Source: a virus (lineage: Duplodnaviria > Caudoviricetes). Taken from it: 24,291 nt of DNA. Each line of letters starts with the position of its first letter. Within the stretch, counting starts at the first letter, position 1. Position numbers and translations under genes: made by a program. The notes beneath the pieces are model-generated. The model was not told the DNA's origin, did not search any database, and saw only the letters and a program-made list of their open reading frames with translations. Below, piece by piece: positions 8,813 to 24,291 of the stretch. The stretch lies in the IMG/VR virus record IMGVR_UViG_3300037419_000644, positions 1 to 24,291 of that record. One strand, written 5' to 3'.

Positions 8813-8831
8813 TAGGTAACAATTGAATGGG

Positions 8832-8839
8832 TATAAATA
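8832..8839 (+). promoter_or_regulatory. T4-type late promoter TATAAATA for the HNH gene
   Basis: Exact consensus in the gp17-HNH intergenic region. Confidence 0.8.
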
Positions 8840-8841
8840 GT

Positions 8842-8896
8842 ATGGGTCGCGAGCGCCAACTCCACCCATTTCTATAACAATAAGAGGTTACCCATG
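8842..8896 (+). promoter_or_regulatory. structured 5' leader of HNH endonuclease gene
   Basis: ATGGGT/ACCCAT stem, CGC/C internal loop, GAG/CTC stem with CGCCAA loop, then a TAAC/GTTA hairpin with the purine-rich SD in its loop. Confidence 0.6.
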
Positions 8897-9508
8897 TTAC
8901 AGCGTTCAGATATATTTATTGAGTCTAAATATGTTAAATGGTATTTTGAGTTAATGGAAAAAGCAAGATACCAACCACCTATAAAAGGTCAGACAGAAAA
9001 ACATCATATTATTCCAGAAGGATGTGGTGGTGAAGATAAAATGGAAAATAGGGTAAATTTGACATATCGACAACATTACATTTCTCATATGCTTTTGGCA
9101 AAAGCCGATTATGTCGAATCATCTTCTAAGAGAAAAATGGTTCAAGGATTTCTTGCATTGGGCCGATTTCGTAAGTTAGATTGGTGGATTAATAGAGATA
9201 GGAATGGGTGTAAGACAAATTTACATGCTCAATTGAAAAAAAATCTCAGTTGCCACATTCGAGGTGAAAAAAGTGTGGTTTTTGGTCAAAAATTCTCTGA
9301 AGAGAGAAAACGACTCCAAAAAAATGGATTAATTGGGAAATCATCGTCTGGTGAGAACCATTATCTTTATAAAAAGAAAATGTCCGAAGAACAAAAGAGG
9401 AAGATAAGCCAGACACTCAAAAAGTATAGTTTCACAGAAGAACATAAAAGGAATATCAGTCTATCAAAAATTGGTCGTCCTCGAAAAGTGAAACTCTTAA
9501 AGTCCTAA
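8894..9508 (+). mobile_element. free-standing HNH homing endonuclease (Mob-like) with NUMOD3-like repeats
   Basis: KY.KWY..L...A; EKHHIIP.GCGG.D..EN.V.LT.RQH...H.LL; C-terminal SEEQKRKIS / TEEHKRNIS; AT-richer than flanks. Confidence 0.9.
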
Positions 9509-9511
9509 ATA
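9504..9511 (+). promoter_or_regulatory. late promoter variant CCTAAATA upstream of gp18
   Basis: CTAAATA about 40 nt before the gp18 ATG; the same octamer precedes gp22. Confidence 0.65.
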
Positions 9512-9552
9512 TACAATAGAATTCAAAATTTTTACTCCAAAGGAGTTTTTAT

Positions 9553-11445
9553 ATGCCTTTCCAAATCTCACCAGGTATTGTAACAACTGAAACCTCTCTG
9601 GCTGGTATCGTCCCTTCGGTAGCAACCACAGGTGGTGCTTTCGTTGGTGACTTCCTATGGGGTCCTGTACTAGAACCAAAGTTGATTTCCAATGAAGTAA
9701 CATTGGTTAATACTTTTGGCAAGCCTGGCGCAAACAACTACGAATCATTCTTCTCCGCAGCAAATTTCTTGGGCTACGGTAACAACCTACGTGTCGTCCG
9801 TGTCATTGATAGTGCTGCACGTAACGCAACTGCAACTGGAAATACTGGCGTTGTTATACGTAATCAAGCGGATTATGAAGCAAACGCAAAGTCAAGCCAG
9901 ATTTCTACACAGGCCGGTCTAACTACCGCTCGTTATCCAGGTGTTCTAGGTAACAACCTTAAGGTATCTCTATGCCCTGGTGCGAATGCTTATTCAAACA
10001 CACTAACAGCAACAGCAAACGTAACTGCTGGAAATACCGCTATTATCTTCTCAGCAAACGTTGCAACAGTCCTAACTACTGGTGACTATATCGCTATCGG
10101 TAATAACTCAAAACTCCAGGTTTCCGCTGTAAATAACACAAACGTAACTGTCGCTCTTTCTCCAACATTTTCAGCAACAGCAAACACCGTTGTTCGCTCT
10201 TGGGAGTATTCTGCTCAGTTCAATGGTGCTCCAGGCACTTCCGACTATGTAAGCACACGTGGCGGCTCCGCCGACGAATTGCACATGGTTGTTGTTGATG
10301 CTACTGGCGCAATCACAGGTACCGCTGGCACAATCCTTGAAAAGTATTCAAACCTTTCAAAGGCTTCCAATGCTCTAAACAACGATGGTACAGCAAACTT
10401 CTATGTAGAAGCTTTGGAACGTCAGTCCCAGTATGTATTCTGGACTTCACACCCAACTGGTGCCACAAATTGGGGTAATGACGCAACAACAACTTTCACT
10501 ACAGTCGCTCGTCCAGTTACACTGACAATGGCTGGTGGTGTTGATTCCGGCACTCCAACAACAGGTCAAATCGAATCAGGTTACGACCTATTCCTAAATG
10601 CTGACCTATACGATATCGGATTGGTCGTCACTGGTCCATGGGGAGCAACAGTCGGGGCCTATGTCATCAACAACTTGGCTGAAGTCCGTAAGGATTGCGT
10701 AGCATTCGTATCTCCAGCTAAGACAGACGTTGTTCAACAGGTTGGAAACGAAGTCGATAATGTCATAGCATGGCGTAACAGCCTTCCTCTATCCTCATCT
10801 TATGGTGTAGCTGATAGCGGTTGGAAGTATCAATACGACAAGTACAATGACCTATATCGTTGGATCCCTCTAAACCCCGACATTGCTGGTCTATGTGCAA
10901 GAACAGACATGACCAACGATCCATGGTGGTCTCCAGCCGGTATCACACGTGGTCAAATCAAGAATGTCGTCAAACTTGCTTGGAATCCTAACCAGGCAGA
11001 ACGCGACCTTCTATATCCAAATGGCGTCAATCCAGTTGTCACTTTCCCTAATGAAGGTACAATCCTGTTTGGTGACAAGACCATGTTGGCAAAACCAGAC
11101 GCATTCGACAGAATCAACGTCCGTCGTCTTTTCATCGTTCTAGAAAAGTCTATCTCCAAGGCTTCTCGTACAGAGCTATTCGAGTTCAACGATGACTTCA
11201 CAAGAGCAGGCTTCAAGTCAATGATTGAGCCTTTCCTACGTGACGTTAAGGGCCGTCGTGGTATCACCGACTTCTTGGTAATCTGCGATACTACAAACAA
11301 CACACCACAGGTTATCAACTCAAACAACTTCGTTGGTACCATCATTGTACGTCCAGCACGTTCAATCAACTTCATCACACTTTCCTTTGTTGCGGCTCCG
11401 GAGGGAATCGCCTTCGAGGAAATTGTGGGCACTGGAGCCTTCTAA
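9553..11445 (+). CDS. gp18: tail sheath protein gp18
   Basis: MPFQISPGI...E; G.F.WGP; FGKP; FFSAANFL.YGN.L.VVRV; ARYPG.LGN; R.DC.AF.SP; YDKYND.YRWIPLN.DIAGLCARTD; PWWSPAG..RG; FDRINVRRLF; FEFND.FTR. Confidence 0.98.
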   Translation: MPFQISPGIVTTETSLAGIVPSVATTGGAFVGDFLWGPVLEPKLISNEVTLVNTFGKPGANNYESFFSAANFLGYGNNLRVVRVIDSAARNATATGNTGVVIRNQADYEANAKSSQISTQAGLTTARYPGVLGNNLKVSLCPGANAYSNTLTATANVTAGNTAIIFSANVATVLTTGDYIAIGNNSKLQVSAVNNTNVTVALSPTFSATANTVVRSWEYSAQFNGAPGTSDYVSTRGGSADELHMVVVDATGAITGTAGTILEKYSNLSKASNALNNDGTANFYVEALERQSQYVFWTSHPTGATNWGNDATTTFTTVARPVTLTMAGGVDSGTPTTGQIESGYDLFLNADLYDIGLVVTGPWGATVGAYVINNLAEVRKDCVAFVSPAKTDVVQQVGNEVDNVIAWRNSLPLSSSYGVADSGWKYQYDKYNDLYRWIPLNPDIAGLCARTDMTNDPWWSPAGITRGQIKNVVKLAWNPNQAERDLLYPNGVNPVVTFPNEGTILFGDKTMLAKPDAFDRINVRRLFIVLEKSISKASRTELFEFNDDFTRAGFKSMIEPFLRDVKGRRGITDFLVICDTTNNTPQVINSNNFVGTIIVRPARSINFITLSFVAAPEGIAFEEIVGTGAF

Positions 11446-11454
11446 TACTATATC

Positions 11455-12039
11455 ATGATTATTTCAGAGAAGGTGGAAGTAACAATATCAAACCAAGGGA
11501 AGTATTATTCTTCCCTTGGTTACAAAGATACTAAACAAGGCACTAAAATAATAGTACCAATTGAACATTTATTAAAAAATTCTAATATTAAAGTTGAATG
11601 TCAATGTGATCAATGTGATTCAATATTCTGGAGACAATATCAATTAGTAAGAAAAGAAGGTAAACTCAATTTAGGACTATTATGTTTTGATTGTGCCAGA
11701 AAAGAAATAGGCGTTCAATCGGATAAGACTAATGCAAAAATTGCAAATAGTAAAAGAACTGGTGTTAAACATCCACGTTGGAATCCTAATAAAAGTGAAT
11801 TTGTTAAATTTGCCAATCAAGTAAGATGGTTAAGTGAAAAGAAATATATTGAATATAAAGATATTATCAATCCACACGACTACCCAAGAACATTATGTGG
11901 TGTTGAAGGTGGTTATCAGTTAGACCATATTATTTCCATCAAAAGAGGTTTTTTGACAGGTCTTAATCCAGAATTTTTAGCAGAAGTAAATAATCTGCGA
12001 ATGGTTCCATGGAAAGTAAATCGTGATAAGTGGTACTAA
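11455..12039 (+). mobile_element. free-standing HNH endonuclease (C-terminal HNH, N-terminal CxxC zinc motifs)
   Basis: CDQC...CFDC; G.KHPRWNP; YQLDHIISIK.GF...NNLRMVPW.VN..K; AT-rich insertion between gp18 and gp19. Confidence 0.8.
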
Positions 12040-12046
12040 CCCACCG

Positions 12047-12054
12047 CATAAATA
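12047..12054 (+). promoter_or_regulatory. late promoter CATAAATA upstream of gp19
   Basis: One mismatch to consensus, followed by SD AAGGAG and ATG 12078. Confidence 0.7.
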
Positions 12055-12077
12055 TTCTCGCAAGGAGTTATAAACAA

Positions 12078-12659
12078 ATGCCTTTTAATATTTCAAACTT
12101 CAGATCAGAACTACAATATGACGGCGCAAGAGCGAACCTCTTCGAAGTCACAATGCAGTTCCCTATTCTCCTTGGTAATTCCGATGCTGCAAGAAAGCTG
12201 ACTTTCATGTGTAAGTCAGCCTCTCTGCCTGGTGTGTCCGTTGGAACTGTTCCAATGTACTACTTTGGTCGTGAGCTAAAGTTTGCTGGCAACAAGAATT
12301 TCCAGGATTGGTCAATCACAATCATCAATGACGAAGACTTTCTGGTCCGTAACGCATTCGAAGAATGGTCAGACGGCATCAATCGTCACGTCGAAAACCT
12401 AAGAACACTTGGCAATAATCCAAATTCTTATCAGGTTGATATGCAAGTTGTCCAGTACGGTAAGTCTGGTAACGGCATCAAGGGTTACAACCTAGTTGGT
12501 TGCTGGCCTACTGACATTTCAACTATCGATTTGGATTGGGGTACAAACGACACAATCGAAGATTTCACTGTTACTCTAGCATACCAGTGGTGGGAAGCGT
12601 ATGGTCCGTCTGGGGTGCAAATCACAGATGGTGAATCCTCACCTGTCGTGTTGCCTTAA
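12078..12659 (+). CDS. gp19: tail tube protein gp19 (start moved to ATG 12078)
   Basis: GARANLFEV; F.CKSASLP; YFGRELK.AG...F..W.ITIINDEDF..RNAFE.W; WPT.IS.IDL.W...DTIE.F.VT..YQWW. Confidence 0.97.
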   Translation: MPFNISNFRSELQYDGARANLFEVTMQFPILLGNSDAARKLTFMCKSASLPGVSVGTVPMYYFGRELKFAGNKNFQDWSITIINDEDFLVRNAFEEWSDGINRHVENLRTLGNNPNSYQVDMQVVQYGKSGNGIKGYNLVGCWPTDISTIDLDWGTNDTIEDFTVTLAYQWWEAYGPSGVQITDGESSPVVLP

Positions 12660-12675
12660 TCTTTTATTTTTTATC

Positions 12676-13338
12676 ATGTTGTGTACAATCTACAAAGCAA
12701 CTAACAAAATTAATGGCAAATCATACATTGGTTTTGATAGTAATTGGCCAAGGCGGCAAATAGAACACAAGTCTAATGCCGCCTTGGCTCGCGATGCTAC
12801 ACACTTTCATAAAGCCATCCGTAAACATGGTTGGGATAATTTTGTTTGGGAAATTGTCTGTCAATTTCCAGACAAAAATTATACATTAAAGGTATTGGAA
12901 CCATATTTCATCAAGTATTATGATACATACGAAAATGGATATAATCTAACACATGGTGGTGATGGTAATCCTGGTTATAAATGGTCAACTGAAATGACCG
13001 AGTATATGAGAAAAATTATGACAGGTAAGAAACAATCAAAAGAAACACTGAAAAAGAAAAGCCTGGCTGCCAAAGGAAGAAAATTGTCTCAAGATCACAT
13101 TTTAAATACTTCTATTGGTCTCATAAAGAGATATGAAACTGAAAACCAAGAAAAAATTTTGGTAAATACAAAATATGGGTCAGTTATGTTTGGCTCATTT
13201 AGGTCTGCCGAAAGATCATTAAAAAATGGTTCAAAATGTGACCTTCATTGGTGCTTCCGTTTCTATAGAAAAAATGATCGTCTTCCACCAAAATTATTAA
13301 ATGAAGGTTTCATCATTAGCGTAGAAAGAGTTGCCTAA
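12676..13338 (+). mobile_element. free-standing GIY-YIG (Seg-like) homing endonuclease with NUMOD3-like region
   Basis: TIYKATNKINGKSYIG; R..EH; F..AIRKHGW.NF.WEI; LE..FI..YDT..NGYNLT.GG.G. Start ATG 12676 lies after the gp19 stop. Confidence 0.9.
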
Positions 13339-15047
13339 TGGCTGGCATAAAGTTATTTGGTTACGAGCTAATAAAGACTAAGCAGGAAGAGGCTAACTCC
13401 TCTCCTTCCCTTAAGTCTTTTGTTGGTCCGGAAAACGATGATGGTGCTATTACAATCCAATCGGGTGCCGGGGGATTCTCCGGCACCTTTCTTGACTTGG
13501 ATGGTGTCATCAAGAATGAGCAAGAGCTTATTGTACGTTATCGTGAAATGGCTCAACAGCCCGAAGTTGAGTCGGCAATTGACGATATCTGCAATGAAGC
13601 CATTGTCCATGACGACGAAGGTAAGACCGTTTCGTTGGTCATGGATCAATTGGATGACTATGATGAAACAGTAAAGAAGGCCATTCGCGACGAGTTTGAC
13701 AATGTTCTGAGATTGTTGGATTTCTCCAACCAAGGTTATGATATCTTTCGCCAATGGTATGTAGATGGTCGTATCTTCTACCATGTCATCGTGGATGAAG
13801 CCAATCGGGATGAAGGTATCAAAGAAGTAAGATTTATTGATCCTCGCAGGATCAAAAAGATTCGTGAAATCCAGAAGGTGAAAGACCCACGTACTGGAAT
13901 GGACATGGTTGGTAAAGTCCAGGAATACTATCTGTTCAATGAGTATGGAACTCCTGGTAAGAACAATTCTGGGGCTAATGGCACTGTAGGCAAGATTGCC
14001 AAAGACTCTGTGGTCTCTATCACTTCTGGTCTTGTTGACCCGAAACGTGGACTCGTTATTGGTTTCTTGAACAAGGCTATCAAGCCTGCCAACAACCTTA
14101 GAATGATTGAAGATGCTTCTGTCATTTATCGTTTGGCAAGAGCACCTGGTCGTCGTGCGTGGTATTTCGACGTAGGTGGCATGAGTTCCAAGAAAGCTGA
14201 AGAATATGTAAATTCGATGATGGTGAAATATCGTAATCGTCTTCAATATGATTCGTCTACAGGTGAAATCAAAGACGATAGACGCCATATTTCAATGCTT
14301 GAAGACTTCTGGTTGGCACGTAAGGATGGTAAACAAACCACCGAGATCGTTACACTTCCAGAAGGTGCTAATCTTGGTAACATGGAAGACGTGGAATATT
14401 TCCTCCGTAAGCTATATTCTGCATTGGGTGTTCCACTTTCTCGTTTGCAGCCAGGTCAGCCCTTCTCTATGGGCTACAACAATGAAATCTCTCGCGATGA
14501 ATTGAAGTTCTCGAAATTCATTGATCGTCTTAGAAATCGTTTCTCTCACCTATTCGATGAACTACTTCGCCAGCAATTGATCTTGAAAAAGGTCTGTAAT
14601 GCCGAAGAATGGGAAGATATCCGCGAACGTCTGCATTATGACTTTTTGCGTGACAATAACTTTACCGAGTTGAAAGAAAGCCAATTGTTGCAGAATCGTC
14701 TCCAGATTCTAACTTCAATCTCTCCTTATGTTGGTGTGTATTTCTCTCAGAAATGGATCAAGACGAACGTTCTTCGCTTCGATGACGAGGACATTGAACA
14801 AATGGATGAAGAAATCGAGGAAGAGGGTTCACAACCACCACCACCAGGAGCAGAGGGACAAATTGATCCTCAGACTGGAATGCCATTTGAAATGGGTTCA
14901 GACGGTACTCCAACACAAAGCGGTGCAATGCCTAGTGAACCAGGTGAACCAGCTTTTGGACAGAACAATTCATCAAATGACTACAAGCCAAAGCTTCGTA
15001 GGAATAAGAAATATGGCGAAGAACCAAAAAGTCCGTTTGACAAGTAA
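13338..15047 (+). CDS. gp20: portal vertex protein gp20
   Basis: LI.RYREMA..PEV.SAI.DI.NEAIV; FRQWYVDGRI; IDPR.IKK.RE; AIKPAN.LRM.EDA.VIYRLARAP.RR..Y.DVG; EDFWL.R; ISRDELKFSKFI.RLR; DN.F.ELKE. Confidence 0.98.
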   Translation: MAGIKLFGYELIKTKQEEANSSPSLKSFVGPENDDGAITIQSGAGGFSGTFLDLDGVIKNEQELIVRYREMAQQPEVESAIDDICNEAIVHDDEGKTVSLVMDQLDDYDETVKKAIRDEFDNVLRLLDFSNQGYDIFRQWYVDGRIFYHVIVDEANRDEGIKEVRFIDPRRIKKIREIQKVKDPRTGMDMVGKVQEYYLFNEYGTPGKNNSGANGTVGKIAKDSVVSITSGLVDPKRGLVIGFLNKAIKPANNLRMIEDASVIYRLARAPGRRAWYFDVGGMSSKKAEEYVNSMMVKYRNRLQYDSSTGEIKDDRRHISMLEDFWLARKDGKQTTEIVTLPEGANLGNMEDVEYFLRKLYSALGVPLSRLQPGQPFSMGYNNEISRDELKFSKFIDRLRNRFSHLFDELLRQQLILKKVCNAEEWEDIRERLHYDFLRDNNFTELKESQLLQNRLQILTSISPYVGVYFSQKWIKTNVLRFDDEDIEQMDEEIEEEGSQPPPPGAEGQIDPQTGMPFEMGSDGTPTQSGAMPSEPGEPAFGQNNSSNDYKPKLRRNKKYGEEPKSPFDK

Positions 15048-15285
15048 GATCATCGAACACCGTGATAGAGCTACCGACCATTTCATTGCGGAAGGCTTAG
15101 GTGATTGGCTGAAACCGGGTTACAAAGGCACTGCCGATATCAAGCGTAGACGCCAACAACACTTGGCTAATAAGTATGTGTATAAGACCGATAAAGAAGG
15201 TACTTTCAAGTTTCATCATCATAACAGAGCGGCACAACGATATGGTCGTCTAGCTGCTGGTAAGAAACCATTTCAAGAAGGATAA
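15013..15285 (+). CDS. small basic protein (90 aa), candidate internal head protein
   Basis: ATG 15013 with AGGA upstream, overlapping the gp20 3' end; contains FIAE (end of the T4 capsid-targeting sequence) followed by a K/R/H-rich segment. Confidence 0.6.
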   Translation: MAKNQKVRLTSKIIEHRDRATDHFIAEGLGDWLKPGYKGTADIKRRRQQHLANKYVYKTDKEGTFKFHHHNRAAQRYGRLAAGKKPFQEG

Positions 15286-15289
15286 GAAA

Positions 15290-16036
15290 ATGAGCAGTAA
15301 AGATATCATCGACCATCTATACAATGGTGATTTGGATCAGATGCGTGAAGCATTCCATCAAACAATGCTTCCTCATGTCGCCAACATGCTTGAAACAAAG
15401 AAGCTTGAAGTAGCTTCAAAGATGATTGGAGATGGGGAACCTGTCAGTGAAGAGGTTCTAGCAGAAATTTCAAAGAAGACACTTGGCTCATATGTAAAGA
15501 AATCTGCCGAAAATATGGCTGCTGGTGAAAGTGACAAAGAAACATATCGCAAGTATCCGGTTGCCAGAAAAGAAGCTGAAAAACAGGTTGAAAAGCGCCG
15601 CACTGGAATTGAACGCGCCGTTAAAAAACTAACCAAAGAAGAAATGGAAACAATCATTGATGCTTTGGATGAAGAAACATTGACAGAACTATCAAAAGGT
15701 ACACTTAAGTCATATGTTCATAAAGCTTCAATGGATATGGTTAAAAATAATCATCTAGCAACATCACCTTTTAAAGGTAAAGGGTACGCAAAAAATAAGG
15801 TTGCAGAAAGAAAGTTTGGTAATAGAGTCGATGGTGTCAAAAAAGCCTTTAATAAAGTTACCAAAGAAGAAGTAGAAGAATTCCTAGGTACTTTAACTCA
15901 GGAAGAAATTGAAAATCTTCAGGAACTATCTTCCAAGAAACTTCTTCAGTACACAGCCAAGGCTGGTTACGATACCAAGAAAGATCGTGAAAAGGGTATT
16001 GACAAGGCTACAAAGAAGCTATCAAAAGACGAATAA
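15290..16036 (+). CDS. gp67: gp67-like prohead core protein fused to three copies of a basic repeat module
   Basis: N-terminal 47 aa (IIDHLYNGDL.QMREAF...M...VANMLETKKLEVASKM) matches the gp67 pattern and position; followed by 3 E[IL]S..TL.SY..K repeats. Confidence 0.65.
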   Translation: MSSKDIIDHLYNGDLDQMREAFHQTMLPHVANMLETKKLEVASKMIGDGEPVSEEVLAEISKKTLGSYVKKSAENMAAGESDKETYRKYPVARKEAEKQVEKRRTGIERAVKKLTKEEMETIIDALDEETLTELSKGTLKSYVHKASMDMVKNNHLATSPFKGKGYAKNKVAERKFGNRVDGVKKAFNKVTKEEVEEFLGTLTQEEIENLQELSSKKLLQYTAKAGYDTKKDREKGIDKATKKLSKDE

Positions 16037-16066
16037 GGTTCCTCGCGTAAAGGAGTAATTTTCCAG

Positions 16067-16354
16067 ATGAAAACATTCGAACAAATTCAAGAAGAAATTT
16101 TATCCGAATTGTCTGGCAAAACTCTTGTTGGTTATATCCAGAAAGCTACCGCGGAAGGTGACAAACAAAATAAGATCGCTCAAGGGCATATGAAAACCTT
16201 ACATAAGCTTCGCATGATTGACAACAAACTGGAAGACCCCAAGAACAAAGAATACTATACACAAACCCATGCTCATGCTCGTAAAGCCGTGAGCAAGCAT
16301 TTTAGAAGAACTGCTGGCTTGAAGCGAGCATATAGAAGTTTGGAGAAGAAATGA
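16067..16354 (+). CDS. candidate internal head protein; capsid-targeting-like N-terminus plus one repeat module
   Basis: MKTFEQIQEEILSE then LSGKTLVGYIQKA...RTAGLKRAY; SD AAGGAG. Confidence 0.7.
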   Translation: MKTFEQIQEEILSELSGKTLVGYIQKATAEGDKQNKIAQGHMKTLHKLRMIDNKLEDPKNKEYYTQTHAHARKAVSKHFRRTAGLKRAYRSLEKK

Positions 16355-16575
16355 AAATGTTAAATCAAATCCAGGAAGAAATCTTGAATGAGATTAGCTT
16401 CGACAAAATGACCGAATATACGAAAAAAGCCTATGCAAGTCGTGAAAAGGCCGGACAGAGAGCCCGCGCATTCGACAATGCAACAGCGAAAGAGGGTACC
16501 AAAACTTATAATAAAAGAGAAAAAGGTTTGAAACTTCTTCATAAGAGATCAAAGGGCTTTTACGGCGAAAAATAA
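16351..16575 (+). CDS. candidate internal head protein; paralog of the preceding ORF
   Basis: MKMLNQIQEEILNE then ISFDKMTEYTKKA...REKGLKLL; ATGA overlap; SD GGAG. Confidence 0.7.
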   Translation: MKMLNQIQEEILNEISFDKMTEYTKKAYASREKAGQRARAFDNATAKEGTKTYNKREKGLKLLHKRSKGFYGEK

Positions 16576-16580
16576 TCATC

Positions 16581-16766
16581 ATGAAGACATTCTGGCAACT
16601 TCTGGAAGAAATGAAGGTAACTAAAGAATCTGTAGACTACTCCAAGGGTATGCCAGAAAGTCATTGTGGTATCTGCGATCATTATAAATCACCAAATGCC
16701 TGCGAAAGAGTAAAAGGTAAAATCAACACAAATATGTGGTGCAAACTGTTCAAGAAAGAAGATTAG
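16581..16766 (+). CDS. HiPIP-like (high-potential iron-sulfur) 4-Cys protein with capsid-targeting-like N-terminus
   Basis: MKTFWQLLEE leader, then K.SV.Y(20)...HC29-x2-C32-x8-C41..V.G.I....WC54..F. Confidence 0.65.
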   Translation: MKTFWQLLEEMKVTKESVDYSKGMPESHCGICDHYKSPNACERVKGKINTNMWCKLFKKED

Positions 16767-16769
16767 ATC

Positions 16770-17264
16770 GTGAAAACCTTAAGCCAACTACTGTCAGAAA
16801 CGAGACATGAAAAGGTGCAAGAACAGACACCACCTGTTTCTATGGTAGAGGCAACAGACGTAATTACACCAGATCAACTATACCACGATTTCGATGTTGA
16901 TGGAGATGGTGTTGTATCTGTAGACGACTATGCATCAAAGATTCTTTGGCATGAGACTCATCCCGGAAAGTTGGAATGGATTATGGGTAATATGGACGGT
17001 GTCCATTTGGAACATGCTGCAAGCGAAGATTCATCATGTGCCGTTTCTCTTCATGAAGACTATGATAGAAGGGTCGAAACAGAGAATTTGGATGAAAATA
17101 CCAAAGGTTCTTTGATGCCACCGTCAATGATCGTAATGAAACGTGTTGCTATCCGACAATATCCCAATGGTCAGAAGGTGGCTCTTTACTACGCCAAGAC
17201 AATTAATAAATATTTGACAGTTCCCTACAACGACATTGGTATCGCAGACTTAACGAAGGAATGA
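16770..17264 (+). CDS. candidate head protein with capsid-targeting-like N-terminus, EF-hand-like loop and conserved C-terminal domain (GTG start)
   Basis: MKTLSQLLSE; DVDGDGVVSVDD; C-terminal PP.MIVMKR.AIR.YP.GQKVALYY...INKY.TVPY resembles ORFs found between gp20 and gp21 in environmental T4-like phages. Confidence 0.65.
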   Translation: MKTLSQLLSETRHEKVQEQTPPVSMVEATDVITPDQLYHDFDVDGDGVVSVDDYASKILWHETHPGKLEWIMGNMDGVHLEHAASEDSSCAVSLHEDYDRRVETENLDENTKGSLMPPSMIVMKRVAIRQYPNGQKVALYYAKTINKYLTVPYNDIGIADLTKE

Positions 17265-17269
17265 TCTAA

Positions 17270-17863
17270 ATGACTCTACAAATTGGTAGCCTAGTACGCC
17301 CAACGGCAGGGCCACACAAAAACCAGGTCCATGAAGTTGTCCATATTTTCGAAGATGGACATGCAAACATTCGCCCTGTAGAAGGCGAATGCTTGTATGA
17401 AGATGGATTGGTTACATGTGATCCAAAACTCCTTCAAGAAGAATTCATTGTTGAAGAATACCAGGAGCCCTATGGACACTGGTTTACGTCCATGTCTGAA
17501 AAGCAAAAGACGGCCTATCGCAAGAATCATCCAGATGCCCAAGGCACTTATGGTCATGCTCCTGGATCAGTCAAGCATTATAGGGCACTGTCACAGGCAC
17601 ATGAGAAATATGCCGACTTTCATAAAGATCGTTTGGAACATCATGAAGACAAGCGCCATGCAGAATCACAGAAAACCAAACCAGACTATGAAGCAATGGA
17701 TCATCATTCTAGTGCAAGACATGGACATGCTACAGAATTCCATAATCATACGATGGCAGCAGCACATTATGGCTCTCTAGCTCGCGGCGGGTCTCCAAGT
17801 TATGACAAATGGATTCCAAAGCGTCATAATGAAGTCTCACCCGCAGAACCAGCAAGGTATTAA
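17270..17863 (+). CDS. hypothetical protein: KOW/SH3-like N-terminus, His-rich helical C-terminus
   Basis: IGSLVRPTAGPHKNQVHEV; LLQE/FIVE linker; 21 His in 197 aa. Confidence 0.6.
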   Translation: MTLQIGSLVRPTAGPHKNQVHEVVHIFEDGHANIRPVEGECLYEDGLVTCDPKLLQEEFIVEEYQEPYGHWFTSMSEKQKTAYRKNHPDAQGTYGHAPGSVKHYRALSQAHEKYADFHKDRLEHHEDKRHAESQKTKPDYEAMDHHSSARHGHATEFHNHTMAAAHYGSLARGGSPSYDKWIPKRHNEVSPAEPARY

Positions 17864-17866
17864 TAA

Positions 17867-18310
17867 ATGCCAATTTCCAATACACAAATCCTTCTAGATA
17901 CCCAGAAACGCACCGTTGTTAAGGTAACGGGTTCTGGAACTGATGTTGCAAACACGACAATCATTAATGCCAATACATTGAATGGGGCCATTTCTGGTCT
18001 TGGATATCACGAGGTTGATGTTCGCAAGATCATCTATTCAATCACAGATGGTGGTGGTTATGTCAAACTTTATTGGCAGGGTGCGTCCGCCAACGTCGAT
18101 ATGGTAAACATCACAGGTCAAGGTGTTCTAGAATTCCAGCCAGAAGCAATGGTATTGAATAACAATGCTACCAATCCATCTGGAAATATTGGATTTTCAA
18201 CAACTGGTATGTCTGCAAACTCCGCATATACTGTAATCCTTGATTTGAGAAAGAATACCGCACACTTCGATCCAGGTTCAGCACTTGACCCAGCCGCTTT
18301 CAACAGATGA
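17867..18310 (+). CDS. conserved beta-rich virion protein upstream of gp68/gp21
   Basis: TQIL.DT.KR.V.K.TG; I.YS; L.W.G; N.SG.I...T.G.....AYT.IL.LRK...HFD.G...DPAAFN is a pattern I recognise from this locus in T4-like phages. Confidence 0.65.
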   Translation: MPISNTQILLDTQKRTVVKVTGSGTDVANTTIINANTLNGAISGLGYHEVDVRKIIYSITDGGGYVKLYWQGASANVDMVNITGQGVLEFQPEAMVLNNNATNPSGNIGFSTTGMSANSAYTVILDLRKNTAHFDPGSALDPAAFNR

Positions 18311-18584
18311 TTTTGAATTTCTAGACGAGGCGGCATTTAGATATGTCACACGAGTCAGAAATGGAAAAGTCATTCGACGCGCCAAAGTCAAAACTGTTAA
18401 GAGAAAAGGATATAAACTCCGTGGTAACAGATTGGTGCGAGAAAGTGCGGCTGAAATTCGAAACAGACGTCGTGCGGCGATTAAAGCTACAAGGAAGCGT
18501 AGGTCTAAACGCTCCCAATCAAACAGAAAGCGTGCAAGATCACTCCTAAAGAGACAAAGATTGCATCTAAAGAGGAAAAGATAA
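18285..18584 (+). CDS. gp68: prohead core protein gp68-like (start uncertain)
   Basis: FLDE followed by a very Arg/Lys-rich region ending R.R..AIKA.RKR.......RKR.RSL.KR..L.L, like the gp68 C-terminus; directly before gp21. Confidence 0.75.
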   Translation: MTQPLSTDDFEFLDEAAFRYVTRVRNGKVIRRAKVKTVKRKGYKLRGNRLVRESAAEIRNRRRAAIKATRKRRSKRSQSNRKRARSLLKRQRLHLKRKR

Positions 18585-19244
18585 ATGATCCTATTAACAG
18601 AAGAGATCAACGACATTGAATATTTGACTGAAGGTACCGGCGCGAACAAGGCTTATTATATTACTGGCCCCTTCATTCAGCCTGGTGTCAAGAATGGCAA
18701 TGATCGTATCTACCCAGAACACGTTATGGATCGTGAAGTAGAGTCTTACACCAAGAAATATATCAATGAAAATCGTGCTTTCGGAGAACTGGGTCATCCC
18801 GATGGTCCAAAGATCAATCTTGATCGTGTCTCTCACATCATCAAGAGCCTAAAGAAAGAAGGACGCGATTACTATGGTAAAGCAAAGATTATGGACACCC
18901 CTTATGGCAAGATTGTCAAGAACTTTCTTGATGAAGGTGCTAAAATTGGTGTTTCTACTCGTGGTGTTGGCACTGTTACCAAGAAGAATGGAATTGCCTA
19001 TATTAATGAAGACTACCGACTATCCACTGCCGCCGATATCGTAGGAGACCCATCAGCCCCGGATGCTTTTGTCCAAGGTCTAAGAGAATCCAAGGAATGG
19101 ATGCTGATTGATGGGGTCTATGAAGAAGTGGATGCTGAAAAGGCGAAGAAAATGTTGCTGGAAGCACACAGCAGCCAGCTAAATGAAGTCAAGATCACTC
19201 TTTTGGAAGGCTTTTTCAACAAGCTTGCCAAAGGAAAGAAGTAA
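18585..19244 (+). CDS. gp21: prohead protease gp21
   Basis: M.L.TE; YI.GPF.Q..VKN.N.R.YP; RAFGELGHP.GP.INLDRVSH.I; GKAKI.DTP.G; GVSTRG.G; AADIV.DPSAPDAFV.G..E.KEW. Confidence 0.97.
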   Translation: MILLTEEINDIEYLTEGTGANKAYYITGPFIQPGVKNGNDRIYPEHVMDREVESYTKKYINENRAFGELGHPDGPKINLDRVSHIIKSLKKEGRDYYGKAKIMDTPYGKIVKNFLDEGAKIGVSTRGVGTVTKKNGIAYINEDYRLSTAADIVGDPSAPDAFVQGLRESKEWMLIDGVYEEVDAEKAKKMLLEAHSSQLNEVKITLLEGFFNKLAKGKK

Positions 19245-19256
19245 ACCAATCCTAAC

Positions 19257-19264
19257 CCTAAATA
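19257..19264 (+). promoter_or_regulatory. late promoter variant CCTAAATA upstream of gp22
   Basis: Intergenic, followed by SD AAGGAG and ATG 19299. Confidence 0.65.
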
Positions 19265-19298
19265 CCAACGTAATTTGAAATCAAGGAGTTTCGTCCTA

Positions 19299-20906
19299 AT
19301 GTCTAAAAAGAATATCACTGATCTAGCACGTTCAATCATGGAAGGCAAGACAAAGACCTTGTCTGAAGGCGCTGACCCATTGGAAAACGTGAACGACCTA
19401 GGTCCTGCTATTGTTCACCCTCTGCAGTCACGTGGCAAGGACTATGGTTCTGGCGTGTCTGGTGGTAAGGACGGAACAATCCCTGGTTCAAGCAAGCCAG
19501 GTGAAAAGTACAACCCAACCAACAAAGACCCTGATCCAAAGGGTGATGTTAAGCCTAACGTAAATTCCAAGGATCATACGATTCCTGGTTCTGAAAAGCC
19601 AGGTGAAAAGTTTGACCCAACCAACAAAGGTAAGGGTGACGACAAGTCTGGTAACCCTGCTGATGGTCCAACAGGTGGTAAGGGTAAGGGCGAACCTTAT
19701 AACCCAACACATCGTACACAGTCCGTCAAGGAAGAAATTCTATCCGAACTTTCTAAGAATACACTTAGCTCATATGTCAAGAAAGCTGCTTCTGATAGAT
19801 CAATGTTGTCACCAATAACTCATAGCGCTGACACCAAAGGGGCTCAAAAGAAACGCGATAATCGTCGTAAAGGAGTCTCTCTCGCTTTTAATAAGCTAAC
19901 CAAAGAAGATGTAGAAGCAATCATGAACTTCATTGGTGGTGAAATCAATGAAGAAAATCTAGAAGCATTGGATGCAAACAAAAGAAATGAATTGTTGTCA
20001 TTCTTTGAATCATTGGAAGACGGCACATCTCTTCTTGAAGTATCCAAAGATGACGACGATGATGACGATGACGATAAGGATGATTCAAAGGATAAAGACG
20101 ATGACAAGGACGATGATGGCGACAAGGCAGACAAATTCAAGAAGCTAAAGGAAGCTCGTGAAGCTGCTGATCGTGCAATCGCTGAACACGTCGATGCAAT
20201 GCTTTCTGGAGAAAACCTAACAGAAGAATTCCAGAAGAAAGCAAAGACAATCTTCGAAGCTGCCGTAGCAGAACGTGAAGCAGTTCTCCGAGAAGAAATC
20301 GAAGCTGAATTCGCTGGCAAGCTTGAAGAAGCCATTGAAGAAATCAAGACCGATCTTGAAGCAAAAGTTGACGATTACATGTCATACTGTGCCAAGGAAT
20401 GGTTGAAGGAAAATGAACTAGCAGTTGAATCATCAACCAAGGTTCAATTGAGCGATGACTTCCTAAATGGTCTACGTAGCCTATTCATTGAACATCACAT
20501 CAATATTCCAACTGAAAAGGTTGATGTTGTTGAAGAATTGTCCTCTGAAGTAGAAGAATTGGAAGGCAAGCTAAACGAAGAGATTGCCAAGAATGTCGAA
20601 GTCCAGAAGGAAGTTTCTGAACTACGTCGTGAAAGAATGGTAATCGAAGCATGTGCTGGTCTAACAACCACTCAAGCTTCCAAAGTCATGAAATTGGTTG
20701 AAGGTATTTCTGCTGAAACTGACGATGAATTCAAGTCTAAGCTTTCAACAATCGTTGAATCTTATACTGGAACAAAGCCACCAGTCGGAAAGACCGTTGT
20801 AGAAGATAAGGATCCAGCTTCTAACGAAAAGAAGGAAGAAGTTGATAATCCAATGTCAAAGTACGTGTCCGCTGCAAAGCGCCATTCACCTTGGCAGAAG
20901 CTCTAA
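19299..20906 (+). CDS. gp22: prohead scaffolding/core protein gp22 with long N-terminal extension (start moved to ATG 19299)
   Basis: V.A.LSGE.LTEEF..KA.TIFEAAV; VD.Y..Y...EW..ENE.AVE; F..GL..LF.EH.I..P.EK.DVVEEL; PM..YV.A; located between gp21 and gp23. Confidence 0.93.
   Translation: MSKKNITDLARSIMEGKTKTLSEGADPLENVNDLGPAIVHPLQSRGKDYGSGVSGGKDGTIPGSSKPGEKYNPTNKDPDPKGDVKPNVNSKDHTIPGSEKPGEKFDPTNKGKGDDKSGNPADGPTGGKGKGEPYNPTHRTQSVKEEILSELSKNTLSSYVKKAASDRSMLSPITHSADTKGAQKKRDNRRKGVSLAFNKLTKEDVEAIMNFIGGEINEENLEALDANKRNELLSFFESLEDGTSLLEVSKDDDDDDDDDKDDSKDKDDDKDDDGDKADKFKKLKEAREAADRAIAEHVDAMLSGENLTEEFQKKAKTIFEAAVAEREAVLREEIEAEFAGKLEEAIEEIKTDLEAKVDDYMSYCAKEWLKENELAVESSTKVQLSDDFLNGLRSLFIEHHINIPTEKVDVVEELSSEVEELEGKLNEEIAKNVEVQKEVSELRRERMVIEACAGLTTTQASKVMKLVEGISAETDDEFKSKLSTIVESYTGTKPPVGKTVVEDKDPASNEKKEEVDNPMSKYVSAAKRHSPWQKL
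19467..19629 (+). repeat. two imperfect direct repeats (102-nt period) in the gp22 N-terminal extension
   Basis: KDGTIPGSSKPGEKYNPTNK and KDHTIPGSEKPGEKFDPTNK, plus a partial third GEPYNPT. Confidence 0.85.
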
Positions 20907-20929
20907 GTGACTAACAAAGATCACTAAGT

Positions 20930-20961
20930 AAAAAGCCGTCAATCCAATTGGATTGACGGCT
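20930..20961 (-). terminator. perfect 28-bp palindrome with A-run on its left; terminator-like on the minus strand
   Basis: AGCCGTCAATCC-AATT-GGATTGACGGCT at 20934-20961, preceded by an A-run (U-tract on the minus strand). No clean U-tract follows on the + strand. Confidence 0.55.
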
Positions 20962-20971
20962 GAATTTATAA

Positions 20972-21029
20972 GTGGATCACGGGATTGGCGTCCCTACCCA
21001 CACTATCGTCTGGAGGGACAACAGCTATG
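20972..21029 (+). promoter_or_regulatory. structured 5' leader of GIY-YIG endonuclease gene
   Basis: GTGGAT/ACCCAC stem, CAC/T internal loop, GGGA/TCCC stem with TTGGCG loop, then a GTC/GAC hairpin around SD GGAGG. Confidence 0.6.
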
Positions 21030-21749
21030 CAGATATTTAGTATATATAAAGCAACGAATAAAATAAATGGTAAATCATATATTGAATACACAAAAGATTT
21101 TGATTATAGGAAAAAACGACATATAGAAGATAGCCGCTATATACAAAATAAATTTTATATTGCAGTAAAAGAATTTGGTTGGGATAGTTTCGAATGGGAA
21201 ATCATCTGTCAATCCTTAGATGGTAAATATCTCTTAAACGAAATGGAACCATATTTTATACAATATTATGATAGCCATCTAAATGGATATAATTCCACAA
21301 AGGGTGGCGAAGGTATCAAGGTTTTGGTTCACTCCGAGGTAACTAAGAAAAAAATTAGTGCATCAAAAACTGGAATACCTCGTGATAGTGATACCAAGAG
21401 AAAACTAAGTATATCTATGAAAGGTAATTCGAAGGGTTGGACTGCTGAAAGACGGATGAAACAATCCGAAATAACCAGAAAACAGAATTTAGGTAGGAAA
21501 CTATCCGAAGAAACCAAAAATAAAATGAGTATTTCTTTAAAGGGGAAACCGCGCAAGTGGACCAATGAATTTAGAGAAAAAAAGAGTTTAGAGATTACTA
21601 TGCGGAATCTGGGTTCCAAACATTCTCCTGAAAGAATAGCTAAAGCTGTTGAAGGAAGACGTAGGGCCTATGAACAAAAGAAATTATTATCAACCAACGG
21701 AATTGTCAAATACAACAAAAACAATGTTGACATTCCTCAACTAACTTAA
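21027..21749 (+). mobile_element. free-standing GIY-YIG (Seg-like) endonuclease with NUMOD3 repeats; YIG motif reads YIE
   Basis: SIYKATNKINGKSYIEYT; R..RH; LNEME..FI; NGYNSTKGGEG; HSEVTKKKIS, LSEETKNKMS, HSPERIAK. SD GGAGG 10 nt before ATG 21027. Confidence 0.88.
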
Positions 21750-21760
21750 GGAGACCTCCA

Positions 21761-23110
21761 ATTTATCTCTCAGAAGAAAATGAAAAGAAATGGGGCGAAT
21801 TGCTTGACTTGGATGGTCTTCCATCCATCAAGGACCCATACCGTCGTGCGGTCACTGCTCTTGTCCTAGAAAACCAGGAAAAGGCATGCCGTGCAGACGC
21901 TCAGATTCTTAACGAATCTGCACCAACCAACTCAACTGGTGCTGGTGTTTCCAACTTCGACCCAATCCTAATCTCATTGGTTCGTCGTGCTCTACCTAAC
22001 TTGATCGCTTACGATATCTGCGGCGTCCAGCCAATGACAGGTCCAACAGGCTTGATCTTCGCAATGCGTTCACGTTACAACGACAACACAACAAGCCGTA
22101 TTGCATCTGTTGAAGCTCTATTCAACGAAGTCAATACCAAGTATTCCAACAACAACCAGATTAACGCTAACACCAATATTCAAAATGGTCTTTCTAGCGA
22201 TCCTATCTCAAATGGTGCTGTTGGTAACTCAAACGTATACTGGTCAAATACTGGTCAGGGTATGTCAACTGCAACTGGTGAAGCTCTTGGTGACTCTGTT
22301 TCCAACGCATTCGCTGAAATGCAGTTCACTATCGAAAAGATCAACGTCACCGCTGTTACACGTGCGTTGAAGGCTGAATACTCACTAGAACTTGCTCAGG
22401 ACTTGAAGGCAATTCATGGTCTTGACGCTGAAGCAGAATTGTCCAACATTCTTTCAACTGAATTGTTGGCTGATATCAACCGTGAAGTTGTCCGTTCCAT
22501 CTATTCTTCTGCAACACTTGGTGCTGCATACGGAACAGCAACTGCCGGTATCTTCGACCTTGACGTTGACTCAAATGGTCGTTGGTCAGTAGAACGCTTC
22601 AAGGGTATGATTTTCCAGCTAGAACGTGAAGCTAACGCTATTGCCAAGGCAACCCGTCGTGGTAAGGGTAACATCATCATCGCTTCCGCTGACGCAGTGT
22701 CCGCTATGGCAATGGCTGGTGTTCTATCTTACACACCTGCTCTAAATCCAAACCTACAGGTCGATGACACTGGCAACACATTTGCTGGTACTCTATTCGG
22801 CTTCAAGGTTTACATCGATCCATACTTCGGTGGTTCTGTAAACGGCTATGAATTGATCACTGTCGGCTATAAGGGTTCATCCCCTTACGACGCTGGTTTG
22901 TTCTACTGCCCATACGTTCCTCTACAGATGGTTCGTGCGGTCGATCCAGGCACATTCCAGCCAAAGATCGGGTTCAAGACACGTTATGGTCTTGTCGCCA
23001 ACCCATTCGCAACTAACCAGGCTGATGGTGTGGTAATGGGTCGCTCACAGGGCGGCACAGCTTACCAGAACAAATATTATAGGCTAATAGGAGTGAAGAA
23101 CCTCATGTGA
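21761..23110 (+). CDS. gp23: major capsid protein gp23 (probable ATT start at 21761)
   Basis: KW..LLD...LP.I.DPYRRAVTA.VLENQE; FDPILISLVRR..PNLIAYDICGVQPMTGPTGLIFAMR; RALKAEYS.ELAQDLKAIHGLDAE.EL; YDAGLFYCPYVPL; FQPKIGFKTRYG; ends VKNLM. Confidence 0.98.
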   Translation: MYLSEENEKKWGELLDLDGLPSIKDPYRRAVTALVLENQEKACRADAQILNESAPTNSTGAGVSNFDPILISLVRRALPNLIAYDICGVQPMTGPTGLIFAMRSRYNDNTTSRIASVEALFNEVNTKYSNNNQINANTNIQNGLSSDPISNGAVGNSNVYWSNTGQGMSTATGEALGDSVSNAFAEMQFTIEKINVTAVTRALKAEYSLELAQDLKAIHGLDAEAELSNILSTELLADINREVVRSIYSSATLGAAYGTATAGIFDLDVDSNGRWSVERFKGMIFQLEREANAIAKATRRGKGNIIIASADAVSAMAMAGVLSYTPALNPNLQVDDTGNTFAGTLFGFKVYIDPYFGGSVNGYELITVGYKGSSPYDAGLFYCPYVPLQMVRAVDPGTFQPKIGFKTRYGLVANPFATNQADGVVMGRSQGGTAYQNKYYRLIGVKNLM

Positions 23111-23116
23111 GTTATA

Positions 23117-23140
23117 CATCTTATGTAATTACATAAGATG
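23117..23140. repeat. perfect 24-bp palindrome
   Basis: CATCTTATGT-AATT-ACATAAGATG, 6 nt after the gp23 stop. Confidence 0.85.
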
Positions 23141-23151
23141 ATCCACAAAAG

Positions 23152-23183
23152 AAAAAATGGGAACCTTGTGTTCCCATTTTTTT
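23152..23183 (+). terminator. rho-independent terminator after gp23 (likely bidirectional)
   Basis: AAAAAATGGGAAC-CTTGT-GTTCCCATTTTTTT. Confidence 0.9.
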
Positions 23184-23228
23184 ATGTTACAATTACATAT
23201 ATTAAATAAATTGAAAACAAGGTAAATA

Positions 23229-23906
23229 ATGACTGTATATCATAATCATCACATTATACCAAGACATATGAATGGAACCGATGATCCATCAAATATTGAA
23301 CGTGTTACCATTGAAGAACATGCAGAGCGCCATAAAGCTCTTTATGAACAATATGGATACGAACAAGATCGTATTGCCTGGCTTTCTCTTTCTGGTCAAA
23401 TCTCTCAGGCTGAAGCGATCAAACTTTCACAACAAGCCCCTAAAAGCGAAAGATGGAAAGCCACTATGTCAGAAAGAATGGCTGGTGAGAATAATCCTAG
23501 ATATGGTAAAACATACGTTATGAATGAAGAAACAAAAGAAAAAATTTCTCAAACAATGAAACAGGAATACCAAAATAATTCTGAGAGACGGAAAAATCTT
23601 GATTGGACTGGTCGTAGCCATTCACCTGAAACCATCGAAAAGATTTCTCGTAAGAGAAAAGGTAAAGGTCTTTGGAAAGGAACTGATCGTCAATCTGGTA
23701 TGATTGGTAAATCTCAATCCGAACACCAGAAATCTACAGTCAAGGAACTATTTTCCAAGAAGTGGAAAGTGACCACACCAACAGGTGAGACAATCGAAGT
23801 CGTCAATCTCAGACAATATTGTGCTGATCTAGGATTCAATCCAGCAACAGCATTCAGCAATATGTCACGTGGTGATTACAAAGGTTATAAGGCAATACGC
23901 CAATGA
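23229..23906 (+). mobile_element. free-standing HNH homing endonuclease (Mob-like) with NUMOD3-like repeats
   Basis: YH.HHIIPRHM.GTDDPSNI...TIEEHAE.H..LYE.YG...D.IAW..L.G; GENNP.YGK; HSPETIEKIS; C-terminal TP.GE...V.NL.QYC. Confidence 0.9.
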
Positions 23907-24281: not shown

Positions 24282-24291
24282 TAGACTATGC

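What the first reader, a model, noticed from the sequence alone, without database searches (positions are those of the whole stretch)
8832..21041. Shared structured leader in front of two unrelated homing endonucleases (candidate new cis-regulatory RNA)
Seen: the HNH leader (8842-8896) and the GIY-YIG leader (20972-21029) have the same architecture with different sequence. Each has a 6-bp P1 (ATGGGT/ACCCAT vs GTGGAT/ACCCAC), a 3x1 internal loop (CGC/C vs CAC/T), a short P2 (GAG/CTC vs GGGA/TCCC), a 6-nt loop (CGCCAA vs TTGGCG, which are mutual reverse complements), a CTAT linker, a mini-hairpin holding the SD in its loop, then ATG. Each also has a competing pairing that would hide the initiation site: ATGGGT with ACCCAT at 8890-8895, and GTCCCT (20990-20995) with AGGGAC (21014-21019). 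The other three endonuclease genes lack it. Inference: a portable translational switch that travels with endonucleases of different families. I do not recognise it as a named RNA family.
Basis: partly seen in the sequence, partly recalled or inferred. Interest (0 to 1): 0.78.

Follow-up and report, generated by a model that had tools for sequence, protein, structure and literature searches.

The report
Antisense cassette heading phage homing endonucleases
The two "leaders" are copies of a portable ~85-base cassette found in front of many unrelated selfish DNA-cutting genes of T4-like phages; its conserved fold fits the strand opposite the gene, so it likely makes an antisense RNA that would hold the nuclease in check, though no such transcript has been seen.

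Summary
Both leaders belong to one family (157 non-redundant members collected; 102 of 110 downstream ORFs hit endonuclease families). A covariance model built without them finds exactly these two sites in the window (E about 1e-7). In unconstrained stem positions the mismatches are A·C on the coding strand, i.e. G·U on the opposite strand (92 G·U, 0 A·C). There the cassette folds as two hairpins, one with the anti-Shine-Dalgarno at its top, one with two bulged G and a variable GC-rich 6–7-nt loop (commonest UUGGCG/CGCCAA, the loop of R1/pMU720 antisense targets). A second late-promoter box inside the first codons faces outward and is conserved at synonymous sites. Best reading: cis-antisense repression of the nuclease, like IS10 RNA-OUT or CopA (0.55). 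Against: no stranded RNA data, dedicated terminators rare (4 of 89), and about half the oriented cases are inverted insertions where the RNA could lead a host gene. No Rfam match; not CfrI. This scan noted the same cassette before on other genomes. Variovorax phage V45v66 offers a cultured test case.

The parts
8832..8839 (+). Copy 1: T4-type late promoter box TATAAATA that would drive the nuclease mRNA
   Evidence: one of two perfect boxes in the window; family has this box 3-5 nt before the hairpin base in 119 of 138
8842..8869 (-). Copy 1: hairpin SL-B, two bulged G, loop UUGGCG on the minus strand (CGCCAA on the mRNA)
8872..8902 (-). Copy 1: hairpin SL-A (12 predicted pairs, opens with CUG/UAG), complementary to the SD (8884-8887) and AUG (8894); here the start codon lies inside SL-A, as in 25 of 157 members
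8913..8920 (-). Copy 1: outward late-promoter-like box AATAAATA inside the first codons, 9 nt before GCUG (family mode 5-6)
8894..9508 (+). Free-standing endonuclease gene (phrog_655 homing endonuclease, NUMOD3) between terminase-like and tail-sheath-like genes
   Evidence: flanking gene names inferred from T4 gene order and sequence, not scanned
20929..20961 (-). Copy 2: perfect 28-bp palindrome followed by a U run on the minus strand only; terminator-like for the outward RNA, 10 nt behind SL-B
20963..20974 (+). Copy 2: degenerate sense late box (no TAAATA at the family's distance)
20972..21001 (-). Copy 2: hairpin SL-B, loop CGCCAA on the minus strand (UUGGCG on the mRNA); A-U middle pair and a G·U in the lower stem
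21003..21025 (-). Copy 2: 5' GCUG and hairpin SL-A with the anti-SD at its top (SD GGAGG 21012-21016 on the mRNA)
21034..21041 (-). Copy 2: outward box ACTAAATA inside the first codons, 8 nt before GCUG
21027..21749 (+). GIY-YIG endonuclease gene (second motif reads YIE) between the scaffold-like gene and the major capsid gene
20907..21763 (.). Extent of the optional unit (terminator + cassette + nuclease): a contig identical on both flanks joins 20906 to 21764 with 81 other letters between
   Evidence: run X4 record 26 (one contig, depth about 4)

Best explanation
Each leader is a two-promoter cassette whose conserved two-hairpin fold fits the strand opposite the nuclease gene, and it likely makes a late antisense RNA that would pair with the nuclease mRNA's 5' end and block its translation. 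Steps: (1) shown in sequence: a TAAATA box before the hairpin faces the nuclease and a second one inside its first codons faces outward; (2) inferred: both are gp55-type late promoters, so the mRNA starts at the foot of SL-B and the outward RNA starts at or just before GCUG; (3) shown by covariation and wobble bias: the outward strand folds SL-A, one A, SL-B; the mRNA keeps a weaker mirror of SL-B; (4) inferred: the two GC-rich SL-B loops kiss, the bulges let the stems open, and pairing spreads over SD and AUG, as for CopA/CopT and RNA-OUT; (5) inferred: repression rises with genome copy number late in infection, and the outward promoter also feeds the next host gene when the unit sits inverted. 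Copy 2's RNA would be about 100 nt and end at the 20929-20961 terminator; copy 1's 3' end is open.
For: Strand: in 79 members chosen by sequence motifs only, the free stem pairs were 429 Watson-Crick, 24 A·C on the coding strand, 0 G·U, 0 other; in 138 non-redundant members 974 Watson-Crick, 92 G·U and 0 A·C on the opposite strand, 10 other. SL-A's base pair forms in 67 of 68 minimum-energy folds of the opposite strand and 5 of 68 of the coding strand; SL-B in 67 and 62. Covariation beats all 500 shuffles and all slid controls. Outward box: present 4-9 nt from CAGC in 97 of 106 members not selected on it; Ile-Tyr next to the cassette is written as the box in 55 of 65 cases against 4 of 30 elsewhere in the same ORFs (p 2.5e-11), and the box occurs in all three frames. 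The two boxes do not covary as a helix (255 flank pairs against 247±10). Loops: centre 79% GC against 39% in the loci, sequence variable, commonest UUGGCG 12 and CGCCAA 9 of 142; PMC3753616 (passages) gives 5'-TTGGCG-3' as the loop shared by its loop-loop chimeras, built from pMU720, R1 and ColIb-P9 hairpins, and with PMC4878617 (passages) reports upper-stem interior loops as needed for antisense binding. The fold is kept equally in 40 co-oriented and 49 divergent settings, so it does not depend on a host gene behind it. Copy 2 has the top-ranked terminator-like site of the scanned region on the minus strand.
Against: No stranded RNA data: only assembled contigs were offered. A separate outward terminator was found for only 3 of 40 co-oriented and 1 of 49 divergent members; the rest have only a U-rich tail (mean 6.3-6.6 U in 12 nt), which is also the complement of the sense promoter. 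Both window copies have atypical box-to-GCUG spacing (9 and 8 nt against a mode of 5-6; 5 of 157 members at 8-9) and are the weakest hits; in the two cultured carriers the box lies 14 and 10 nt away, one with a mismatch. The near-invariant GCUG/UAG-A-G junction is more sequence conservation than pure antisense pairing needs. Loop diversity within genomes (1 equal pair seen, 2.8 expected) is not significant, so a specificity code is not shown. The folding-energy gap between strands is partly composition (G/U-rich strand).
Confidence: 0.55

Rival explanations
1. The outward RNA exists but works mainly as a stabilising 5' leader and promoter for the neighbouring host gene, and dampens the nuclease only by convergent transcription, without RNA-RNA pairing.
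For: 49 of 119 members with enough flank have a divergent upstream gene, and in 30 of 39 of these the gene on the far side is also on the outward strand, i.e. the unit is inverted inside a host gene run. Several host genes start 20-40 nt behind the cassette with no room for a promoter (UvsW-like gene in V45v66). Terminators are rare.
Against: The fold, wobble bias and box are as well kept in 40 co-oriented members, including both window copies, where no gene lies ahead. Some divergent neighbours show their own promoter-like boxes (by eye). A leader role does not explain GC-rich, variable loops with conserved bulges.
Confidence: 0.2
2. The outward RNA is a ligand for a protein (the nuclease itself, as an RNA antitoxin or scaffold, or a shared phage or host factor) that reads the GCUG/UAG-A-G junction and the two bulged G.
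For: CUG/UAG is invariant in 74 of 74 aligned hits and the linker is one A in 129 of 138; bulged G are kept while neighbouring pairs covary.
Against: The partner nucleases belong to several unrelated families, so a shared RNA-binding surface on them is unlikely; part of the invariance is built into my search patterns, and whole-genome scans gave variants of the core (unparsed rows).
Confidence: 0.1
3. The hairpins act in single-stranded DNA of the minus strand as a recombination or mobilisation signal for the nuclease unit.
For: G·T is also better than A·C in DNA; units occur in both orientations, up to 13 per genome, and swap nuclease families; an empty-site allele exists.
Against: With DNA parameters the strand advantage shrinks from 6.2 to 0.9 kcal/mol and SL-A forms in 110 rather than 153 of 157; 6-7-nt Y..R loops and a promoter box at start-site distance fit RNA; copy 2's unit boundary lies about 65 nt outside the hairpin.
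Confidence: 0.08
4. One reading: a cis translational switch on the nuclease mRNA, or the classic T4 mask in which the promoter arm pairs with the start region on read-through transcripts.
For: SL-B can also fold on the mRNA (62 of 68); in copy 2 the predicted mRNA fold does bury part of the SD; in copy 1 the read-through mRNA pairs the upstream ATGGGTA with the start region; such masks are established for T-even endonucleases (PMC2988022, passages).
Against: Zero coding-strand G·U against 24 A·C; competing pairings at chance rate; no covariation between the promoter box and its downstream complement.
Confidence: 0.07

Closest known systems
IS10/Tn10 RNA-OUT / RNA-IN (PMC5006887, passages)
   Same: A mobile element's enzyme gene with an outward promoter in its 5' part; a short antisense RNA (69 nt there) complementary to the translation start; inhibition grows with copy number.
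   Different: Phage late-type boxes instead of sigma-70 promoters; two hairpins and full overlap with the leader instead of one hairpin and 35 nt; heads nucleases of many families; here the RNA is only predicted.
Loop-loop plasmid antisense systems: R1 CopA/CopT, pMU720, ColIb-P9 (PMC3753616, PMC4878617, passages)
   Same: 6-nt TTGGCG loop (commonest here with its complement), interior loops or bulges in the upper stem, a mirror hairpin in the target.
   Different: They control plasmid replication proteins; no sequence homology was tested or claimed beyond the loop; the loops here vary widely.
CfrI of cyanophage S-PM2 (PMC2984593, PMC5931967, passages; the original ISME J 2010 paper seen only as a reference)
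   Same: An expressed antisense RNA starting inside a free-standing homing endonuclease gene and running over its start into the upstream gene (record coordinates).
   Different: About 200-225 nt, tied to psbA; no match to the model (best 8.7 bits, E 1.8; none in the genome).
RBS-sequestering hairpins with embedded late promoters of I-TevI/II/III, segB, Aeh1 mobE, and of fractured-gene endonucleases (PMC2988022, PMC2677866, passages)
   Same: Structured control region with TATAAATA at the head of homing endonuclease genes of different families.
   Different: There the hairpin is on the mRNA, hides the RBS and contains the promoter; here the box lies outside the hairpins, the SD sits in a loop, and the fold is selected on the other strand. 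T4 has no match. The motif logos of PMC2677866 (Figures 4A, S4) could not be seen.

Membership tests
Any Rfam 15 family | Match at gathering score | tested here: not met
   Window: 4 weak hits, none over either leader hairpin or at gathering score; 20 loci, most of them canonical members: only a tRNA
T4-type late-promoter/RBS-masking hairpin | Conserved hairpin folds on the mRNA | tested here: not met
   0 G·U and 24 A·C on the coding strand; SL-A forms in 5 of 68 coding-strand folds
T4-type late-promoter/RBS-masking hairpin | Late promoter lies in the 5' arm that pairs with the start region | tested here: not met
   No covariation between flanks of the two boxes in 136 members
T4-type late-promoter/RBS-masking hairpin | RBS sequestered on read-through transcripts | tested here: inconclusive
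   Mean unpaired probability of SD core 0.45 in 152 late leaders; copy 1 read-through fold pairs the start region; not tested family-wide on read-through RNA
IS10 RNA-OUT-type cis-antisense control | Convergent promoters overlapping the translation start | tested here: met
   As sequence boxes only: 97 of 106 outward, 130 of 138 sense
IS10 RNA-OUT-type cis-antisense control | Stable structure on the antisense strand | tested here: met
   (predicted and covarying, not probed)
IS10 RNA-OUT-type cis-antisense control | Discrete short RNA with a defined 3' end | tested here: inconclusive
   Terminator-like site for copy 2 but only 4 of 89 members overall
IS10 RNA-OUT-type cis-antisense control | RNA is made and inhibits translation | not testable with these tools
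   Only unstranded contigs available
CopA/CopT-type loop-loop antisense | GC-rich 6-7-nt loop and bulged upper stem, mirrored in the target | tested here: met
CopA/CopT-type loop-loop antisense | Kissing complex and four-way junction; control of a plasmid Rep gene | not testable with these tools
   Complex not testable; the controlled genes are endonucleases, so this works like, but is not, a member
CfrI | Sequence and structure homology; link to psbA | tested here: not met

The most novel reading that the evidence does not exclude
Free-standing homing endonucleases of many families in T4-like phages share a plug-in, kissing-loop antisense module, built like plasmid copy-number RNAs, whose variable loop gives each of up to 13 nucleases in a genome its own dose-dependent brake and whose outward promoter lets the selfish gene insert in either orientation.
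Probability: 0.35. Interest if true: 0.75.

Novelty: new variant of a known kind. Interest (0 to 1): 0.6.

Why it matters
How phages tolerate a dozen selfish nucleases is explained so far by mRNA hairpins and autorepression in a few T-even cases, and one antisense RNA of unknown function (CfrI). A single portable antisense module on unrelated nucleases would add a general mechanism, explain why about half of these genes can sit inverted in host gene runs, and supply a large natural library of short antisense/target pairs. A cultured carrier (Variovorax phage V45v66, PV558790.1) makes the key prediction directly testable.

Tried and rejected
RNA evidence: 18 RNA runs held parts of 15000-24291, all as contigs; four were laid on 19800-23400 and covered gp22-like and capsid pieces but not the cassette, which says nothing about expression or strand. 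No read data were obtained for copy 1. Relatives of the copy 1 nuclease: none in viral contigs; portal query gave one distant locus; a pattern for the capsid start found nothing in metagenomes. BLASTN of one leader against cultured phages found nothing real. 94 loci around sheath and capsid relatives (971 kb) gave 1 hit, so the cassette is patchy. Bacterial genomes: 39 pattern matches, 6 strong members, all on 1.8-3.8 kb contigs of metagenome bins, taken as probable phage fragments and not as host evidence. Cultured phages: 2 of 12 carry it (stricter filters may miss weak copies). Rejected: a long helix between the two boxes; conserved competing pairings; the box as a by-product of Ile-Tyr coding; within-genome loop orthogonality as significant; more U or terminators in co-oriented members (p 0.17 and 0.32). 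The counts (1689/142/3/9) come from a parser that accepts G·U on the minus strand and are not used as the strand test. Literature: searches found no paper describing this motif; the catalogue of PMC10690425 lists unnamed 58-105-nt candidates near GIY-YIG/HNH genes (e.g. DNAVirus_8080, 8282, 8377; supplement tables) whose alignments could not be read, so a bare listing there is not excluded.
Full report
Setting. The window is the virion-gene block of an uncultured T4-like phage: the capsid protein is 59-64% identical to those of T4-like Pelagibacter, Methylophilales and cyanobacterial phages, and five small endonuclease-like genes are inserted between structural genes. RNA-library contigs from rhizosphere samples match its scaffold and capsid genes with no differences over 146-438 nt. 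The names of the other structural genes rest on gene order and my reading of the translations.

Observation. On the coding strand neither leader folds better than shuffles (z -0.74, -1.16), while the reverse complement of copy 2 does (z -2.07). A pattern from copy 1 gave 33 viral loci, of which 20 by eye showed the same surroundings: TAAATA, a covarying stem, a CTCTA-like linker and in most an SD, CAGC and an endonuclease-like ORF. Two looser patterns gave 123 and 125 loci from 7 of 64 parts of the collection, with estimates of about 1200 and 1300 matching stretches including chance matches. A covariance model from 68 members, excluding the window, finds exactly two sites in the window, 8832-8920 and 20959-21041, and none at the other three endonucleases. 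After removing identical cores 157 members remained; 111 of 123 with enough flank lead into an ORF of 100 aa or more, and 102 of 110 such proteins hit a PHROG annotated as endonuclease (GIY-YIG, HNH, phrog_655, phrog_12324, endonuclease VII types; many hits are weak), 6 hit nothing and 2 only unknown families. Four large phage records carry 13, 8, 2 and 8 copies.

Which strand. In 79 members picked by fixed motifs and an upstream box, not by pairing, the free positions of the two stems were 429 Watson-Crick pairs, 24 A·C mismatches on the coding strand and no G·U or other mismatch. In 138 non-redundant members (19 of 229 profile hits did not parse and were left out) the opposite strand shows 974 Watson-Crick, 92 G·U, 0 A·C and 10 other cells. 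Read on that strand the cassette is G-CUG-stem-anti-SD loop-stem-UAG (SL-A), one A, then SL-B: six pairs, bulged G, one pair, bulged G, 3-4 pairs, a 6-7-nt loop. SL-A's outer pair forms in 67 of 68 folds of this strand and 5 of 68 of the coding strand. RNAalifold predicts the same structure on 74 hits, with both-sided changes at 14 of 19 pairs and a G-C/G-U/A-U series at the middle pair (that alignment was fitted to the model, but the unfitted one also beats 500 shuffles and slid controls). Both window copies fold this way at -21.2 and -22.3 kcal/mol. DNA parameters give a much smaller strand advantage (0.9 against 6.2 kcal/mol).

Two boxes. A TAAATA faces the nuclease 3-5 nt before the foot of SL-B (119 of 138). 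A second faces outward from inside the first codons, 4-9 nt from GCUG, in 97 of 106 members not selected on it; it is conserved at synonymous sites (55 of 65 against 4 of 30) and in three frames. T4 late promoters are an 8-bp box about one helical turn before the start (PMC2988020, one passage); that this puts +1 about 5-6 nt behind the box is my recall. The boxes do not covary with each other as a helix, so the second is better read as a promoter than as a masking arm. Both window copies have longer spacing (9 and 8 nt), and copy 2's sense box is degenerate.

Loops. Their centres are 79% GC in loci of 39% GC, with a pyrimidine first and mostly a purine last, but no fixed sequence; UUGGCG (12) and CGCCAA (9) lead among 142 loops not selected for loop sequence. 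This is what a cis-encoded kissing loop would look like, since any strong sequence is automatically complementary to its target. PMC3753616 reports TTGGCG as the loop shared by its loop-loop chimeras, which were built from pMU720, R1 and ColIb-P9 hairpins, and it and PMC4878617 report that upper-stem interior loops are needed for fast antisense binding (passages).

Both 6-nt competing complements exist, but 11% of native leaders and 13% of recombined controls have such a run, and cross-pairing in the ensemble is not higher in natives. They may matter locally, in copy 2 especially, but are not the family's mechanism.

Context. Of 119 members with 700 nt upstream, 49 have a divergent neighbour, 40 a co-oriented one, 30 were unclear (ORF-based classes). 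Most divergent cases are inverted insertions (30 of 39), and the fold is equally kept in both classes. A separate outward terminator was found in only 4 of 89; copy 2 is one, with a 28-bp palindrome and a U run only on the minus strand. One contig identical on both flanks lacks 20907-21763, so terminator, cassette and nuclease are one optional unit; a relative with 89% capsid identity has a plain 74-nt spacer with a late box there.

Known systems. No Rfam family matches. T-even hairpins hide the RBS on the mRNA and contain the promoter; those features fail here, and T4 has no hit. CfrI has the same geometry but no homology. IS10 RNA-OUT and CopA-type RNAs are the working models, not families to file it under. 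Six literature searches found no description; unnamed catalogue entries near endonuclease genes in PMC10690425 and the figures of PMC2677866 could not be compared. Two of 12 cultured phages tested carry it: Variovorax phage V45v66 (53.5 bits) and Pseudoalteromonas phage vB_Psh_XG4 (44.5 bits); for V45v66 I saw only the search listing of a preprint.

Earlier notes. I wrote the antisense reading down before consulting the scan's notes; they report the same cassette and reading on other genomes, none with RNA data, and none on this genome. They are not independent support.

Verdict. Real, widespread, apparently undescribed; most likely a cis-antisense control cassette (0.55); a new variant of a known kind; interest 0.6.

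Noticed in passing
window 21748-21766: The major capsid gene has no ATG: SD AAGGAG, 7 nt, then ATT-TAT where a relative at 89% identity has ATG-TAT. An RNA-library contig spanning 21617-21855 has no differences, so an AUU start in the nuclease-bearing allele is plausible.
   Followed up: partly
window 21027-21749: The GIY-YIG second motif reads YIE, and the sense late box of this copy is degenerate; the gene may be decaying while the cassette's outward parts are intact.
   Followed up: no
window 20934-20961: The palindrome arm CGTCAATCC is complementary (one G·U) to GGATTGGCG at the top of copy 2's hairpin, and CGTCAA/TTGACG is a loop variant in the family; it may derive from a duplicated cassette piece.
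   Followed up: no
window 8815-8834: An upstream ATGGGTA (repeat of the hairpin's 5' arm) and GTAAC are complementary to copy 1's start region; the read-through mRNA is predicted to pair part of it, a possible T4-type mask added on top of the cassette.
   Followed up: partly
L222 558-1520 (-): A cassette-led ORF whose C-terminal half hits head-closure PHROGs (phrog_218, E 1e-56) and which also hits an endonuclease family: possible nuclease/structural gene fusion.
   Followed up: no
L361 (Variovorax phage V45v66, 84492-87571): Cassette plus GIY-YIG gene sit inverted between UvsY-like and UvsW-like genes (names from my reading of the translations); the helicase ATG is about 20 nt behind SL-B.
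   Followed up: partly
window 15290-16575 and 19275-20906: Several head-region ORFs share a repeated 'LSELS.KTL.SY..KA' motif (also inserted in the scaffold protein).
   Followed up: no
window 23152-23182: A second long hairpin with a U run on the minus strand lies just behind the capsid gene, before the fifth endonuclease, which lacks the cassette.
   Followed up: no
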